Part shown: positions 15,001 to 21,000 of the stretch, piece after piece
How the letters are laid out: each line of letters begins with the position of its first letter
Numbering within the stretch: position 1 is the stretch's first letter
Assembly: GCA_963719085.1 (NCBI GenBank)
Contig: CAVRAL010000004.1
Location: 1,120,001-1,184,000, forward strand
DNA from: a candidate division FCPU426 bacterium
GTDB lineage: Bacteria; Oederibacteriota; Muellerivitia; Muellerivitales; Muellerivitaceae
DNA: 64,000 bases
Direction: 5' to 3'
Position numbers: made by a program

Positions 15001-18000
15001 ATGGCGGCGGAGGCGGTGGCGGCATTATATCCTTGATCGAGAAAGTGCCTTCTTTTGCCGGAACCACTTCGGTTTTGGGCGGAAACTATGTTCCTGGCTA
15101 TGTCTCCCCAAATACAGGTGAAACCGGAAGTGTGACCGTCACGGCGGCGCCTTCCAGCGGGTATTAGTTCTTTCTTTTCAAAACAAAAACCTTCGGGAAA
15201 ATGCTCCCGAAGGTTTTTGTTTTTCAAGTTCTTTTAATTAAAAAACCTAAAATAAAAATCCACGAAAACGCGCGTTCCCGGGGGCCAAAAATCTTGACTT
15301 CTCCCCCATAGGTTGTATAGTCCGAACAAACACCACCCACTCCCCAAATTTCCCCTGGATGAGGCCGCATGACTCCGATCGGGACACAGTCCAACCCTGA
15401 AACCGAAGCCCCCGCTTCCCCTTTTTATGATTTACTCCAGCAAATCCCCTTGCAATGCCACGAAAAAGAACGGTTCCTTGAATCCGAGATTTTAAGCGTT
15501 CAAATCGACCCGAACCGCCAGCTGGTCTGGATGAAGCTGAAGATGCCGGCCATGGTGGGCGCGGAGTGTTTTGAGGGCCTGGCTTTGGGCCTCAAAGCCA
15601 CCTTGCCGGACGTGGCCAAGGTGATCCTGGATGTCCATTATCCGGCCGGCATTCTGGGCACCGCGGACTACTTGGCCCTTCACGGTAAAAATTTAGTGGC
15701 CGCTTTAATCGAGGAAGGGGACATCGCGGAGGGCTGGTTCGCCCATTGCCGGTTGGTCATGGAAAGTGAAAGCCTGGTTTTGCAGGTTCCCCATGAGTTG
15801 GCCCAACAGCAAATGGAACGCAAACAAGCCGCCAAGTTCCTTTCCGAAATGATGAAGGTGCGCTGCGGCGTGGAAGCGGCCGTCCGCGTGGAAACCCAAG
15901 CGTCCCTGCGGCCTGAGATTACCCCGGAGATGCTCGAGGCCGCCGCCGAGAAACCCAAGGAAGCGGCCAAGCTGACCGAGCCCGTTTCCATCCTGGGCCG
16001 CGCCATCGCCGCCGAGCCCCAATCCATGAACGTCCAGGACGAGCAGAATAGTTTTGTGGCCGAGGGCGAGATCATTATGTTCGAGACCTTCCAAACCCGA
16101 AGCGGCCGCCACCTGGTGAAACTGACCATCACGGATTACGTTGATTCTCTCGATGTCCGCTTTTTCCACGAGGGCGACGGCAAGTTCAAGGGCGGCTTGA
16201 AAGAGCGCGACTGGGTGCGGGTACGGGGCGATTTGCGGTTCGATAAATACGCGGCGGATGATTTAACCATGACGGCCCGCGACATCATGAAGGTGCCGCC
16301 CCCCGAATCGCGCCAGGACCGCGCCGTTGAAAAAAGGGTCGAGCTTCACTGCCACACCCAAATGAGCCGCATGGACGGACTTTCCAAAATCGACCGCCTG
16401 ATTGAGCGGGCCGCCAAGTGGGGCCACCCCGCCATCGCCATCACGGACCACGGCGTGGTGCAGGCTTACCCCGAAGCCCGGGCCGCCGCCAAAAAGCACG
16501 GCATCAAACTGATCCTGGGCATCGAAGGCTACCTGGTGGATGAGTTTAAACGGGAAAAGGGAATGCCCATTTACCACATCATCATCCTGGTCAAGAACAA
16601 GGCGGGCCTGAAGAACCTCTACAAATTGGTTTCGGAAAGCCATCTGCATTATTTTTACAAACGGCCGCTCATCCCTAAAGAACTGCTCGAAAAACACCGG
16701 GAAGGACTCATCATCGGCTCGGCCTGTGAGCAAGGCGAAATTTGGCAGCACCTTCTTAAAAAAGACAAGCCGCTGGAAGAAGTGGCGGCCTTTTATGATT
16801 ACGTCGAGATCCAGCCCTGCGGCAACAACGAGTTTATGATCGCGGACGGCGCGGTGAAGGATATGGCGGAGCTTCAGGCCTTGACCAAACAGCTTTACGA
16901 TTTGGGCAAAAGCATGGGCAAGATGGTTTTGGCCACCGGCGACTCGCACTTTTTGGAGCCCCGGGACGAGGTTTACCGCCGGATCATCCACGCGGGCATG
17001 GGCTATGGCGTGGAGCGCCAAGCGCCGCTTTATTTCAAAACCACCGATGAGCTTAAACGGGATTTTGAGTATTTCACCCCTGAGATCGTCCATGAATTGG
17101 TGGTGACCAATCCCAATAAAATCGCCGCCATGGTGGAGGATGTGGAACCCCTGCCCACCGAAACCCTGAGCCCCCATTGGGACGGGGCGGATGATTTGCT
17201 ACGAAAGACCGCCACCGACCAAGCCAAGGCGCTCTATGGCGACGCCTTGCCCGATTTCATCGAGAAGCGGCTCACCAAAGAACTCGACGCCATCATCAAC
17301 AATAAGTTTTCCACCTTGTATGTGATCGCCATGAAACTGGTGAAAAAGTCCATCTCGGACGGCTATCTGGTCGGAAGCCGGGGAAGCGTGGGAAGTTCTT
17401 TCGTGGCCTATTTATGCGGTATTACCGAGGTCAATCCCTTGCCGCCCCACTGGCGCTGTCCGGAGGGTCATTTTCACGAGTTCCCCGAAAATCCCGGCTC
17501 TTCCGCCGGCGTGGATATGCCCGAGAAAAAATGCCCCAAGTGCGGCATGCCCACCATCCGGGACGGCTTTTCCATCGCCTTCGAGGTTTTCATGGGCTTC
17601 AAGGGCGATAAGATGCCGGACATCGACTTGAATTTTTCCGGCGAGTACCAGCATGTGGCGCACAAATACGTGGAAGAGCTTTTCGGCAAGGAACATTGTT
17701 TCCGAGCCGGCACCATCTCGGCGGTGAAGGATAAGATCGCCTTCGGCTTTGTGAAAAAATTTGTCGAGGAAGTGGGGCGCAAACCCCGCAACGCGGAGCT
17801 CAACCGGCTGGTGAAGGGCTGCTCAGGCGTGTCCAAGACCACCGGCCAGCATCCGGGCGGCATCGTCATACTTCCTAAGCACATGGAAATTACCGACGTC
17901 TGTCCCGTTCAATACCCGGCGGACAACAAAGACGGCGACGTCATCACCACCCATTTTGACTATGACAGCATGCATGACTGCCTGGTCAAGCTCGACATCC

Positions 18001-21000
18001 TGGGCCATGACAATCCGACCAGCTTGAAGCGTTTGCAAACCATGACCGGGGTGTCGCCGGTCCACATTCCGCTCAACGATCCGGATACCATGAGTCTTTT
18101 TTCCGGGGTAGGCGCTTTGAAGCTGAAAGAAAAAATGGATTTTGATTTAGGAAGCTTAGGCATCCCCGAGTTCGGCACTTCCTTCGCCATGGACATGCTC
18201 CGGGATACCAAGCCCACCAAGTTCGAGCATTTGGCCCGATTGTCCGGTTTGGCGCATGGCACCGATGTGTGGCTGGGCAACGCGCAGGATTTAATTAAAA
18301 AAGGCACCGCCAACCTGTCGACCGTCATCTCCACCCGCGATGACATGTTGAACGACCTGGTGGCCCAAAAGATGGATGAGGCCTTGTCCTTCAAAATCAT
18401 GGAGTCGGTCCGCAAGGGCAAGGGGCTGACGCCGGAGTTTGAAAAGGCCTTGGCGGAAGCCAAGATTCCCACCTGGTACGTGGACAGCTGCCGCAAGATT
18501 AAGTACATCTTTCCCAAGGCCCATGCCGTGGCCTATTGCATCATGAGTTTCCGCATCGCTTATTTTAAAGTGCATTATCCCTTGGCCTTCTACGCCGATT
18601 ATTTCACCAACAAGTCCTCGGGCTTTGACGCCACCGTGGCCTGCGGGGGCTTGGGCAAGGTGAAGGAACACATTAAAAACGTGAAGGCCATGGAAAAGCC
18701 GACCAACAAAGAACTGGATGAAGTGTCGGTTTTGGAAGTGGCGGCCGAGATGTACGCCCGCGGGTTCAAGTTCTTGCCGGTGGATCTTTATACTTCCAAC
18801 ACCCATCAATTCAAGATCGAGAAGGCCAATGGCGAGGATTGCCTGCGGCCGCCCCTGATTGGGTTGCCGGGCCTGGGCGAAACGGCGGCGGAGTCCATTG
18901 TGGAAGAGCGCGCGAAGGGCGAGTTTACTTCGATTGAGGATTTGGTCGAGCGCTGCGGCATCAACAAGAACGTCATCGAGATCCTCAAGGGCCACGGCTG
19001 TCTGGGCGAGATGCCCGACTCCCAGCAAGTTTCGCTCTTCTAGTTTTCATCACCACTATATGAAGTAGTGAAGAATCCATAAAAGCCCAATATCCAAGGC
19101 CTTCCCCGGGCTTTGGCCTTGCTATCATTAGGCCTTTTTGATAAAACATCCGTGCACATTTAAGGTTTTCCCAAAAAGTGGGCCCTTCCGGCCCGCTTTT
19201 TTTTTCACCTGTTTCAGGGATTGGCCTTGAGCGCGATTCGTTGATTTTGAGGTTGGAAATGACCGATTCAAACCTGCCCGGTTCCTTTCAAATCCGGGAA
19301 GTGGCCGAAGTGGCGGCAAAAGACCAGTTTCTGGAGCTGTTTGATTTTTCGATGAGGACCCAGGGCAAAAATCTGGTCCTGACGGTGGTTTTGGACAAGA
19401 AAAGCGGTCCGGTCACGCTCGACGATTGCACCAGCGTCAGCCGGGACTTGGAACAAAAGCTGGACGAGCTTAATTTGATTGATCGGGCGTACCTTTTAGA
19501 GGTGTCGTCCCCGGGGCTGGATCGGCCCTTGAGAAATGCGGACGATTGTCTGAGATTTAAGGGCCGGCTGGCCCAGTTCGTGACGCTGGAGCCCTTGGAC
19601 GGCCAGAGTAGTTTTAGGGGAAGGCTTCAGGAAACCGCCGGGGACCTGGTGGAACTGGTGCTGGAAGGCGGGAAGCTGGTGCGGCTTCCATTCTCGAAGG
19701 TGAAGACGGCGCGGCTGATCGTCGAGATATAAGTTCTTAATTTTTAGTTTTGAGTTATGGAAACTTAGAACTGAAAACTTAGAACTAAAAACTGCAGCTC
19801 CTAGGGGTTGAACATGGGTAACGAATTAGCCTTGGTGATGAGCCAAATCGAGCATACCAAGCGGATCGACAAAAAGCGTTTGGTGGAAGCCATCCAAGCG
19901 GCCCTGTCCTCGGCGGCCAAGAAAATCTTCGGCGTGGGCCAGGAAGTGGAAGTCGAGTTCGACGAAATCAACACCGAGTTCCGCGCCTATTACCTGAAGG
20001 AAGTGGTGACCACGGTCACCGATCCCGGCACCCAGATCAACCTGGCGGACGCGCGCGCCATCAAGTCCGATGCCGAGCTGGATGAAGTCATCAAGATTCG
20101 CATTCCCGCGGAGCAATTCGGCCGCATCGCCGCCCAGACCGCCAAACAAGTCATCGTCCAGCGCGTGCAGGACGCCGAGCGCCAAAGCGTGTACGACCAG
20201 TTCAAGGAAAAAGAAGGCGATCTCATCACGGGCAACGTGCTTCGTTACGAGGGGCGCAACGTGATCATTTCCCTCGGCGACGCCGAGGCCCTGATGCCGC
20301 CCAAGGAACAGGTGCCGCGCGAGCGTTACGCCACGGGCGAGCGCATGAAATTTTTGGTGCTGGAAGTGCGCAAGACCCTGAAGGGTCCCGCCATTATCGT
20401 GAGCCGCGCCCATCCGAACCTGGTGCGCAAAATGTTTGAGCTCGAGGTGCCCGAGATTTATGAGGGCGTGGTCAAAATTGAGAGCGTGGCCCGGGAGCCC
20501 GGCGCCCGCACCAAGATCTCCGTCCGTTCCATGGGCGACGACCGCATTGACGCCGTGGGCGCCTGCGTGGGCGTCAAGGGCATCCGCGTGCAGAACATCG
20601 TGGATGAGGTGCGGGGAGAAAAGGTCGACATCGTGCGCTGGGATGATGATCCGCACAACTACCTGTCCAACGCCCTGTCGCCGGCGAAAATTTCCCGGAT
20701 TGTTTTCCACACCGACTCGCCCTCGGCGGAAGTGATCGTGCCCAACGACCAGCTGTCTTTGGCCATCGGCAAAAAGGGCCAAAACGCCCGGCTGGCGGCC
20801 CGCTTGACCGGCATCAAGGTCGATATTAAGAACGAGGAACAACACGCCACGGAGGAGCGGGCCCGCATGGACGCCCACTTCATGGAAATTTCCCAAGATG
20901 GCCCGGTGGGAGAGGCGAAGGCCCCGACGGAGGAGGACCGCAAGGTCGCCCCTCCGGATGAGATCAACGAAGGCGCCGTCCAAGGCGAGGTCACCGAGGT

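What a model noticed while it worked through the whole genome (the two positions that open the first line are those of the whole stretch)
15369..19043. Exonuclease-less PolC beside DnaE1: a Clostridia-type replicase pair in a diderm, non-Firmicute phylum
g02324 is a PolC-type DNA polymerase III alpha subunit (43% identical to Clostridium PolC over its polymerase part, PolC-specific N-terminal and OB domains present) that lacks the DnaQ-like 3'-5' proofreading exonuclease domain which canonical PolC carries inside its PHP domain; the genome also has a DnaE1-type alpha subunit (g00251) and a separate 205-aa DnaQ-like exonuclease (g00625). This organism has LPS, BamA and Lpt genes, so PolC+DnaE1 is not confined to Firmicutes/Fusobacteria, and exo-less PolC is not confined to Clostridia. 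The gene is a lineage trait: 62 of 99 genomes of the phylum have it, as a 1150-1300-aa frame wherever whole, and these proteins form their own clade outside the [...]
Evidence so far: NCBIfam NF001688 PolC equivalog (covers 58% of the model), Pfam PHP 325-474, DNA_pol3_alpha, finger, HHH_6 but no RNase_T; Swiss-Prot: 1018 residues of g02324 align to 1217 of C. perfringens PolC, ~200 residues missing. phmmer vs PDB: one unbroken stretch 222-1224 to 3F2B (G. kaustophilus PolC construct lacking N-terminus and exonuclease; the paper PMC3919608 says these parts are missing from that structure), but two stretches to full-length PolC 9QPC, the second being 393-1224 to 634-1471. Homologues of 47-90% identity are 1216-1248 aa without PF00929; canonical PolCs of 1414-1463 aa carry PF00929. 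Search with residues 1-344: 62/99 phylum genomes, 29/30 of the family. FastTree of 32 PolCs r [...]
(Added by a program. Inside this text positions count along the whole contig: contig position 1,120,001 is position 1 of the stretch shown here. "Call 12" and the like, gene names such as g00115 and contig names such as C1 are that model's own, and its searches are not shown. The text may have been shortened before it was handed on; [...] marks where a part breaks off. The agent that wrote the report below was given it as the finding of a first reader that could run no searches.)

Follow-up and report, generated by a model that had tools for sequence, protein, structure and literature searches.

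The report
Exonuclease-less PolC in a non-Firmicute phylum
This gene encodes an intact replicative DNA polymerase of the PolC type that naturally lacks its usual built-in proofreading domain, and it belongs to an uncultured outer-membrane-bearing bacterial phylum where this polymerase type was not thought to occur.

Summary
Window 15369-19043 (+) encodes a 1224-aa PolC-type Pol III alpha subunit. A 16-residue linker replaces the ~200-residue DnaQ-like exonuclease.

Exo-less PolC itself is known (Timinskas 2014, Clostridia/Negativicutes). This scan has met it before on other, Firmicute DNA.

New here:
- **Host.** It is an LPS/BamA-bearing genome from a group of 99 species. The genome lacks Firmicute-type DnaD/YabA.
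- **Distribution.** PolC scores over the family cut-off in 77 of 99 genomes, and all 26 sampled are exo-less.
- **Losses.** The PolC-less families are scattered on a DnaE tree, which fits repeated loss.
- **PHP site.** The nine-residue PHP metal site is intact in 26/26 PolCs of the phylum and in 42/43 other exo-less PolCs, against 78/124 exo-bearing ones.
- **DnaE.** In the window's own order the DnaE PHP site is decayed in 10/10 genomes.
- **DnaQ.** The 205-aa DnaQ-like gene occurs in only 2/31 family genomes.

So PolC's PHP domain is the only conserved proofreading candidate, and PolC is probably the main replicase there. That step is inferred.

The PolC tree backbone is unresolved. One clade for the phylum is not rejected (p-AU 0.735), and transfer from Firmicutes is not excluded. 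The phylum's name is unresolved: one member's title reads 'Candidatus Firestonebacteria'.

I class it as a new variant of a known kind, of moderate interest.

The parts
15369..19043 (+). [quoted passage not shown]
   Evidence: ORF; NF001688 1382 bits, TIGR01405 1259 bits; 3f2b and 9qpc alignments; dN/dS 0.08
15369..16028 (+). PolC N-terminal region (about residues 1-220)
   Evidence: The PolC model matches from model position 7 (G000 match to model positions 7-407, 178 bits). Pfam DNA_pol3_a_NII is only E 0.051, not significant.
16071..16292 (+). OB fold (residues 235-308), placed N-terminal to PHP as in PolC
   Evidence: Pfam PF01336, 27.8 bits; aligned to the 3f2b OB region
16332..16997 (+). 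PHP domain (about residues 322-543) with all nine metal ligands: H327 H329 D336 H361 E386 H403 C453 D525 H527
   Evidence: Pfam PHP 128.5 bits. Motif positions read from the alignment. The consensus HHDHEH[C/H]DH is taken from PMC12926913.
16527..16574 (+). 16-residue linker (residues 387-402) where canonical PolC carries the ~200-residue DnaQ-like exonuclease
   Evidence: Linker lengths; two-stretch alignment to 9qpc
17196..18425 (+). Polymerase core (palm, thumb, fingers; residues 610-1019). Catalytic residues D751, D753 and D876, plus the PolC-specific N755.
   Evidence: Pfam DNA_pol3_alpha and finger. These residues are invariant in 193/193 aligned PolCs. The PolC-specific Asn is described in PMC3919608 section 17.
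17457..17543 (+). Zinc module C697-x3-H701 ... C722-x2-C725. The second Cys is replaced by Gly, with a His next to it.
   Evidence: the second Cys is Gly in 7 of 17 group A PolCs and His follows in 8 of 17
18762..19019 (+). Tandem helix-hairpin-helix domain (residues 1132-1217)
   Evidence: Pfam HHH_6 54.2 bits
19026..19040 (+). C-terminal sliding-clamp motif QVSLF (residues 1220-1224)
   Evidence: Sequence. A Qxx[LF]F-type C-terminus is seen in the 26 sampled phylum PolCs. The QLSLF consensus is from PMC3919608.
7900..10831 (+). ispG and proS, upstream part of the conserved polC slot
   Evidence: NCBIfam NF001540 480 bits and NF006625 773 bits; same order in family relatives
10952..15167 (+). 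GT4 glycosyltransferase, two tandem DUF1207 paralogues and one unknown ORF between proS and polC
   Evidence: conserved upstream of polC in the family
19178..23413 (+). rimP, nusA and infB, directly downstream of polC
   Evidence: NCBIfam RimP, NusA (395.7 bits), IF-2 (817.6 bits); conserved order

Best explanation
The gene encodes a functional PolC-type replicative DNA polymerase. A short linker closes its PHP domain where other PolCs carry a DnaQ-like exonuclease.

**What the sequence shows**
- The polymerase active site, OB fold, zinc module, HhH domain and C-terminal clamp motif are intact.
- The PHP domain keeps all nine metal ligands. The same is true in every sampled PolC of the phylum and in nearly all exo-less PolCs elsewhere.

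**What I infer about proofreading**
- The PHP domain is the 3'-5' proofreader of this enzyme.
- In the window's own order the second polymerase, DnaE, has lost PHP ligands.
- No DnaQ-type partner is conserved there.
- So PolC is probably the main high-fidelity replicase. DnaE is probably reduced to a helper role, like DnaE3 of Bacilli.

**What I infer about history**
- PolC is an old trait of this uncultured outer-membrane-bearing phylum.
- It was lost several times, and only in lineages whose DnaE keeps an intact PHP site.
For: **Identity and integrity**
- Family, Pfam and PDB matches.
- Catalytic D751/D753/D876 and N755 are invariant in 193/193 aligned PolCs.
- The clamp motif is QVSLF.
- dN/dS is 0.08.

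**PHP site**
- The motif HHDHEHCDH is intact in 26/26 phylum PolCs.
- It is intact in 42/43 other exo-less PolCs, against 78/124 exo-bearing representatives.

**DnaE and DnaQ**
- The genome's own DnaE PHP reads HHEKEHCDH. All 10 sampled f1/f2 DnaEs have E and K/R at ligands 3 and 4, and most have lost later ligands too.
- The DnaE PHP is intact in the 6 readable PolC-less genomes and in 11 PolC-bearing genomes of families f8, f9 and f15-f23.
- The 205-aa DEDD exonuclease is in only 2/31 family genomes.
- 27/31 family genomes have at most one RNase_T protein. It is oligoribonuclease in the window's genome.

**Lineage trait**
- 77/99 genomes pass the cut-off, in 17 of 23 families.
- On the DnaE tree the PolC-less families fall in at least three places.

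**Circumstantial**
- 72% of ORFs of 150 aa or more lie on the G-rich strand (81% on contig C1). Strong strand bias is linked to PolC genomes in PMC3814617 (abstract seen).
Against: - No biochemistry exists for any exo-less PolC.
- PHP exonuclease activity is inferred from ligand conservation only. Those ligands could be kept for structural reasons or for pyrophosphatase activity.
- DnaE here is full length. It scores over the DnaE cut-off (1406 bits) and keeps a clamp motif, QTSLF. It could still do most of the synthesis.
- In most other PolC-bearing families of the phylum both PHP sites are intact, so the division of labour may differ between families.
- Strand bias is uneven (61% on contig C4) and was not compared with PolC-less relatives.
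- The claim that PolC is old in the phylum rests on a single-gene DnaE tree made by a quick search, and on an unresolved PolC tree.
Confidence: 0.6

Rival explanations
1. PolC is not ancestral to the phylum. It came by horizontal transfer from exo-less Firmicute donors, once or twice, and later spread or was lost.
For: - Every taxon-bearing name among the non-self PolC hits is a Firmicute.
- Identity to Clostridial PolC in the polymerase part (52-55%) equals the identity to PolCs of other families of the same phylum (46-53%).
- Free trees place group A (f1, f2, f8-f12) and group B (f14-f23) apart.
- Exo-less forms are common among Firmicute-type PolCs (43 outside the phylum in my sample).
Against: - A tree with all 17 phylum PolCs as one clade has a higher likelihood than the quick free tree, with p-AU 0.735.
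- The careful tree has an open backbone.
- DnaE divergence mirrors PolC divergence between groups A and B.
- PolC occurs in 17 of 23 families.
- The gene sits in the proS-polC-rimP-nusA slot in f1/f2 and near nusA in f8/f9.
- No Firmicute-type DnaD or YabA came with it.
Confidence: 0.3
2. DnaE is the main replicase and PolC is an accessory polymerase, for example for lagging-strand work, repair or restart. Fidelity would come from polymerase selectivity and mismatch repair, not from PHP proofreading.
For: - DnaE is full length, passes the DnaE equivalog cut-offs and keeps a clamp motif.
- The roles of the two enzymes in PolC + DnaE1 organisms are called experimentally uncharacterised in PMC3919608 (abstract).
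- Six families of the phylum live without PolC.
Against: - In this family DnaE has lost PHP ligands, while PolC keeps all nine under strong purifying selection.
- No DnaQ partner is conserved.
- PolC-less families all keep an intact DnaE PHP in the readable cases (6/6). This suggests that at least one PHP-competent replicase is required.
Confidence: 0.25
3. The 205-aa DnaQ-like exonuclease (contig C1, 727061-727675 of the genome) supplies proofreading in trans, as epsilon does in E. coli.
For: Its best NCBIfam match is the exonuclease segment of the PolC model (118.7 bits, model positions 425-599). It has Pfam RNase_T at 101 bits.
Against: - It is found in only 2 of 31 family genomes and is absent from the same-genus genome G069, which is 82% complete.
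- It scores below the TIGR00573 dnaQ cut-off (58.3 against 71.5).
Confidence: 0.07
4. Artefact: the gene is a Firmicute contaminant in a binned genome, or a decaying pseudogene.
For: The genome is metagenome-derived. PolC is unexpected outside Firmicutes.
Against: - The gene lies on a 1.29-Mb contig of a genome rated 99% complete with 0.03% contamination.
- Local GC (0.55-0.56) matches the window.
- Housekeeping neighbours are conserved in relatives.
- It is present in 77/99 genomes.
- All motifs are intact and dN/dS is 0.08.
Confidence: 0.01

Closest known systems
Exo-less PolC variants of Clostridia and Negativicutes (Timinskas et al. 2014, PMC3919608)
   Same: Same architecture (NTD-OB-PHP-Pol-HhH without the exonuclease insert). 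Paired with a full-length DnaE, not a truncated DnaE3. PHP metal site conserved. C-terminal QxxLF clamp motif.
   Different: - The host is an LPS/BamA-bearing group of 99 species with no Firmicute label, not Clostridia or Negativicutes.
- All 26 sampled PolCs of the phylum are exo-less, whereas in Firmicutes this is a minority variant (6% of PolCs in that paper).
- In the window's own order the partner DnaE has a decayed PHP site, unlike Clostridial DnaE1.
Canonical PolC (G. kaustophilus 3f2b construct; full-length 9qpc)
   Same: 1053 bits to 3f2b over residues 222-1224. Catalytic Asp triad, PolC-specific Asn, zinc module, OB before PHP.
   Different: It lacks the DnaQ-like exonuclease naturally. 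The natural 16-residue linker sits where the 3f2b construct lacks the domain. The second zinc Cys is replaced by Gly, with a His next to it.
PolC + DnaE3 system of Bacilli (B. subtilis)
   Same: Works alike in one respect: a PolC with proofreading capacity is paired with a DnaE whose PHP site is disrupted.
   Different: Here proofreading would come from PHP, not from a DnaQ domain. DnaE keeps OB, CTD and a strong clamp motif. Firmicute-type DnaD and YabA are absent.
PHP-proofreading DnaE1 of Mycobacterium tuberculosis and Thermus (PMC5636811, abstract seen in the listing)
   Same: An intrinsic PHP exonuclease acts as the replicative proofreader without a canonical DnaQ subunit.
   Different: That is a DnaE1. 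Here the PHP-competent enzyme is a PolC, and DnaE has lost the site.

Membership tests
[quoted passage not shown] | Whole-protein score above the curated cut-off of the equivalog models | tested here: met
   1382.4 bits against 873; 1258.7 bits against 1043.45
[quoted passage not shown] | Domain order with OB N-terminal to PHP, and a PolC-type N-terminal region | tested here: met
   OB 235-308 lies before PHP 325-474. The N-terminal region matches PolC-model positions 7-407 at 178 bits.
[quoted passage not shown] | Catalytic Asp triad with the PolC-specific Asn in place of the fourth Asp of DnaE | tested here: met
   D751, D753, N755, D876; criterion from PMC3919608 section 17
[quoted passage not shown] | C-terminal QLSLF-type clamp-binding motif | tested here: met
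   QVSLF at residues 1220-1224
[quoted passage not shown] | DnaQ-like 3'-5' exonuclease inserted in the PHP domain (the 'hallmark') | tested here: not met
   No PF00929. A 16-residue linker takes its place. A known exception class exists (PMC3919608), so membership in PolC stands, as the exo-less subtype.
[quoted passage not shown] | DNA polymerase activity and a role at the replication fork | not testable with these tools
   Needs purified enzyme or genetics
Exo-less PolC subtype (Timinskas 2014) | Found in genomes where PolC is paired with DnaE1 that has a conserved PHP site | tested here: not met
   The partner is a full-length DnaE (NF004226, 1406 bits), but its PHP reads HHEKEHCDH. 10/10 f1/f2 DnaEs are degenerate. 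The feature is met in families f8, f9 and f15-f23 of the same phylum.
Exo-less PolC subtype (Timinskas 2014) | Taxonomic range Clostridia/Negativicutes | tested here: not met
   - BamA and LpxC are present.
- DnaD/DnaB_2 and YabA are absent.
- Named IF-2 neighbours are non-Firmicute in 11 of 12 cases.
- Relatives' titles read bacterium, proteobacterium, Firestonebacteria or Spirochaetia.
PHP-type proofreading exonuclease | Nine metal ligands HHDHEH[C/H]DH | tested here: met
   H327 H329 D336 H361 E386 H403 C453 D525 H527; criterion from PMC12926913
PHP-type proofreading exonuclease | Measured metal-dependent 3'-5' exonuclease activity | not testable with these tools
   Needs a biochemical assay
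DnaE3 (for the partner DnaE) | Disrupted PHP site together with weakened clamp motif and frequent loss of OB/CTD | tested here: inconclusive
   The PHP site is disrupted. But the protein is full length (aligned 2-1143 of 1146) and has QTSLF. Its phylogenetic class was not tested against named DnaE3.

The most novel reading that the evidence does not exclude
PolC is much older than the Firmicutes. An exo-less PolC that proofreads through its PHP domain was already present in the ancestor of this unrelated outer-membrane-bearing phylum, in the same proS-polC-rimP-nusA slot. It may represent the primitive state of PolC, before the DnaQ-like domain was inserted. On this reading the phylum preserves three replicase states side by side: DnaE alone; PolC plus a PHP-active DnaE; and PolC plus a PHP-dead DnaE. 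It would then be a natural series for how two-polymerase replisomes evolve.
Probability: 0.15. Interest if true: 0.8.

Novelty: new variant of a known kind. Interest (0 to 1): 0.55.

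Why it matters
- **Range.** The papers I read give PolC as confined to Firmicutes, Tenericutes, Fusobacteria and Thermotogae (PMC3919608, PMC4070872). They give exo-less PolC as a Clostridia/Negativicutes oddity. A whole uncultured outer-membrane-bearing phylum with only exo-less PolC widens that range.
- **A testable question.** How does a replicase without a DnaQ exonuclease proofread? In this family PolC's PHP site is the only conserved candidate. A recombinant enzyme with metal-site mutants would answer it directly.
- **Drug target.** PolC is also a drug target with a claimed Gram-positive spectrum, so its true range is of practical interest.
- **Evolution of two-polymerase replisomes.** The three replicase states within one phylum give an independent comparison to the Clostridia/Bacilli split between DnaE1 and DnaE3.

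Tried and rejected
- **RNA evidence.** No RNA holder was listed for window 14000-21200.
- **Naming the phylum.**
  - The protein atlas gave PolC-type clusters with almost no taxa.
  - A cluster look-up of ten phylum PolCs returned no organism names.
  - NCBI titles of relatives disagree: bacterium, proteobacterium, Firestonebacteria, Spirochaetia. The name stays open.
- **Envelope type.** Pal scored only below its cut-off, and no SLH domain was found. Neither tether type could be assigned.
- **PolC remnants in PolC-less genomes.** In five such genomes the genes upstream of rimP-nusA are unrelated and differ between families. No polC or proS lies there. This does not decide between loss and gain.
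- **A conserved DnaQ partner.** Rejected, so no complex prediction was sent.
- **Rooting PolC with a single DnaE.** The outgroup branch is very long. Parsimony leaves the ancestral exo state ambiguous, with 13 changes on 58 rows, in a sample I enriched for exo-less forms.
- **Careful tree.** The IQ-TREE run (LG+G4, 59 rows) left the backbone open and its bootstrap had not settled.
- **Rows dropped.**
  - The G003 DnaE frame was left out of the DnaE tree.
  - The G040 DnaE frame stayed in that tree on a branch of length 10 and was disregarded.
  - Both G003 and G040 were dropped from the full-length DnaE alignment, and neither was counted in the PHP tallies.
  - PolC representatives shorter than 1100 aa were left out of the alignment.
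- **Literature.**
  - No paper held both 'Firestonebacteria' and 'PolC'.
  - No listed paper combined PolC or DnaE with the candidate-phyla, Terrabacteria or Gracilicutes terms (15 of 104 listed).
  - Supplements of PMC3919608 and PMC12926913 were not opened and may list further taxa.

Full report
**Observation**

Window 15369-19043 (+) is one open frame of 1224 codons.
- It scores 1382 bits on the PolC equivalog NF001688 (cut-off 873) and 1259 bits on TIGR01405 (cut-off 1043). Each match comes in two stretches that leave out the model's exonuclease segment.
- Pfam finds an OB fold (235-308), PHP (325-474), the Pol III alpha NTPase and finger domains and HHH_6. It finds no RNase_T.
- Against solved structures it aligns in a single stretch (222-1224) to 3f2b. 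PMC3919608 says the N-terminal domain and exonuclease are missing from that structure. It aligns in two stretches to full-length 9qpc (192-392 to 225-431; 393-1224 to 634-1471).
- Between PHP ligands E386 and H403 lie 16 residues. Exo-bearing PolCs in my alignment mostly have 200-220 there.

**Integrity**

- The catalytic D751, D753 and D876 and the PolC-specific N755 are invariant in all 193 aligned PolCs. The criterion is from PMC3919608 section 17.
- The protein ends in QVSLF, a clamp motif of the QLSLF type.
- In the zinc module the second Cys is replaced by Gly, with a His next to it. This holds in 7 (Gly) and 8 (His) of 17 close PolCs.
- dN/dS against the same-genus orthologue is 0.08.
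- The gene lies on a 1.29-Mb contig of a 3.04-Mb genome rated 99% complete with 0.03% contamination.

Contamination and decay are excluded for practical purposes.

**What is already known**

- Timinskas et al. 2014 (PMC3919608; outline, passages and section 17 read) reported that 6% of PolCs lack the exonuclease insert. All of these were in Clostridia and Negativicutes, except one extra copy in Thermotogae.
- The same paper states that PolC is confined to Firmicutes, Fusobacteria, Tenericutes and Thermotogae.
- PMC4070872 says the same about the four phyla (passages).
- The 2026 survey PMC12926913 covers species with complete genomes. [quoted passage not shown]
- This scan has reported exo-less PolCs before, on Firmicute DNA (notes e1-4775332, e1-4468418, e1-3901473).

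So the architecture is not new.

**The host**

- The genome has BamA (536 bits) and LpxC (259 bits).
- It has no match to DnaB_2/DnaD or YabA. Among the 14 control genomes these two families ring only in B. subtilis and L. lactis.
- Beyond the genome's own clade, its IF-2 has 12 hits with a taxon-bearing name. Eleven are non-Firmicute (Poribacteria, Elusimicrobia, Methylomirabilis/NC10, Acidobacteriota, Nitrospirota, Desulfobacterota-type) and one is Bacillaceae. This is a crude best-hit test.
- The genome tool groups the genome with 98 other species in 23 families as one phylum.
Three titled public loci are identical to loci of members of the phylum. Their titles read 'Candidatus Firestonebacteria bacterium', 'uncultured bacterium' and 'uncultured Spirochaetia bacterium'. 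Close relatives are titled 'bacterium' or 'proteobacterium'.

I leave the name open. No label is a Firmicute one.

**Distribution**

- The PolC model passes its cut-off in 77 of 99 genomes.
- The 22 others break down as follows:
  - All 19 genomes of families f3, f4, f5, f6, f7 and f13.
  - G045, which is 66% complete.
  - G083, which is 93% complete.
  - G081, where PolC is split over contig ends.
- Whole frames are 1205-1362 aa.
- All 26 PolCs that I extracted, from 17 families or unplaced relatives, are exo-less.

**History**

- On a DnaE tree (32 rows, quick IQ-TREE with PMSF) the PolC-less families are not one group:
  - (f4,(f5,f6)) is one clade at 100.
  - (f13,f3) is sister to the window's (f1,f2) at 90.
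  - f7 stands apart.
- This fits two or three losses better than many gains. It is, however, a single-gene tree, and one row on it is bad (G040).
- PolC trees (FastTree with 194 rows; IQ-TREE LG+G4 with 59 rows) give two robust groups: A (f1, f2, f8-f12) and B (f14-f23). They stand apart in the free trees.
- A tree that holds all 17 phylum rows together has a log-likelihood 34 units higher than the quick free tree, with p-AU 0.735.
- The careful tree has an open backbone.
- One clade is therefore allowed but not shown. The sister group is unknown, and transfer from Firmicutes is not excluded.
- The exo state changes 13 times on the 58-row tree. The root state is ambiguous.

**Gene neighbourhood**

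- In the window the order is ispG, proS, GT4, two DUF1207 genes, an unknown ORF, polC, rimP, nusA, infB, rbfA, nrnA, truB, ribF and pnp.
- The stretch from ispG/proS to infB is conserved in f1, f2 and unplaced close relatives. In f8/f9 polC is near nusA. In f10-f23 it is not next to nusA or proS.
- An exo-bearing PolC of a MAG titled Chloroflexota (L015) shows ispG, a proS-like gene, polC, rimP, nusA and infB.
- The order proS-polC-rimP-nusA in B. subtilis is recalled, not tested here.

**Proofreading**

- *PolC's PHP site.*
  - The criterion from PMC12926913 is the nine-ligand motif HHDHEH[C/H]DH.
  - It is intact in 26/26 phylum PolCs and in 42/43 other exo-less PolCs.
  - It is intact in 78/124 exo-bearing representatives.
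- *DnaE's PHP site.*
  - The genome's own DnaE (1145 aa, 1406 bits on NF004226) reads HHEKEHCDH.
  - All 10 sampled DnaEs of f1/f2 have E and K/R at ligands 3 and 4, and most have lost later ligands too.
  - The DnaE PHP is intact in the 6 readable PolC-less genomes and in 11 genomes of f8, f9 and f15-f23.
  - f12 is degenerate, f10 has one change, and G003 and G040 were unreadable.
- *RNase_T proteins.*
  - One of the genome's two is oligoribonuclease (270.6 bits).
  - The other is the 205-aa DEDD exonuclease. It occurs in only 2 of 31 family genomes.
  - 27 of 31 family genomes have at most one RNase_T protein.

I infer that PolC's PHP domain is the proofreader. I also infer that in this family PolC is the main accurate replicase. 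DnaE keeps its full length and a QTSLF clamp motif, so its role is open.

**Strand bias**

- 1518 of 2111 ORFs of at least 150 aa (72%) lie on the locally G-rich strand.
- The figure is 81% on contig C1 and 61% on C4.
- This is in the direction reported for PolC genomes (PMC3814617 abstract). I had no PolC-less relative to compare it with.

**Verdict**

This is a real, selected exo-less PolC. It is a new variant of a known kind, for four reasons:
- The architecture is known, but here it is the only form found in a non-Firmicute, outer-membrane-bearing phylum.
- In this family it is paired with a PHP-dead DnaE.
- No DnaQ partner is conserved.
- The phylum holds three replicase states.

The mechanism and the evolutionary origin remain inferences.

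Noticed in passing
Genomes G006-G010 (f4) and G011-G015 (f5), e.g. L077:5833-6522 (-): The PolC-less families f4 and f5 carry stand-alone DEDD exonucleases in open frames of 192-275 aa. In f4 the best NCBIfam match is the exonuclease segment of the PolC model (193 bits, model positions 415-611). The gene examined in G006 does not lie in the rimP-nusA neighbourhood.
   Followed up: partly
window 12188-14009 (+): Two tandem, overlapping DUF1207 paralogues (307 and 339 aa), followed by an unknown 357-aa ORF (14094-15167), sit between the GT4 gene and polC. They are conserved there in family relatives.
   Followed up: partly
window 17457-17543 (PolC residues 697-725): In the window's family the second Cys of the PolC zinc module is replaced by Gly with a His next to it (C-x3-H instead of C-x2-C). 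Gly is seen in 7 of 17 close PolCs.
   Followed up: partly
P0200, P0230; L015 / G099: Exo-bearing PolCs occur in MAGs titled Candidatus Hydrogenedentota and Chloroflexota. The latter genome also has two DnaE genes, and its polC sits in the ispG-proS-polC-rimP-nusA slot. Going by depositors' labels, PolC may be wider among uncultured phyla than the four usually listed. I did not verify the labels.
   Followed up: no
window 30001-32000: GC drops to 0.386 in this 2-kb bin, against 0.52-0.62 elsewhere in the window.
   Followed up: no
Genome contig C1, 263001-275080: The oligoribonuclease gene lies about 10 kb from dnaE in G000. An RNase_T gene of the same size lies at a similar distance from dnaE in several family genomes, e.g. 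G046, G056 and G073.
   Followed up: no
G083 and G085: Each of these two PolC-group-B genomes shows two separate DnaE N-terminal matches on different contigs. This may mean a second DnaE or mixed bins.
   Followed up: no
P0162 (1475 aa), P0042 (1865 aa): Unusually long PolC relatives: an exo-less one with about 250 extra N-terminal residues, and an exo-bearing one of 1865 aa.
   Followed up: no
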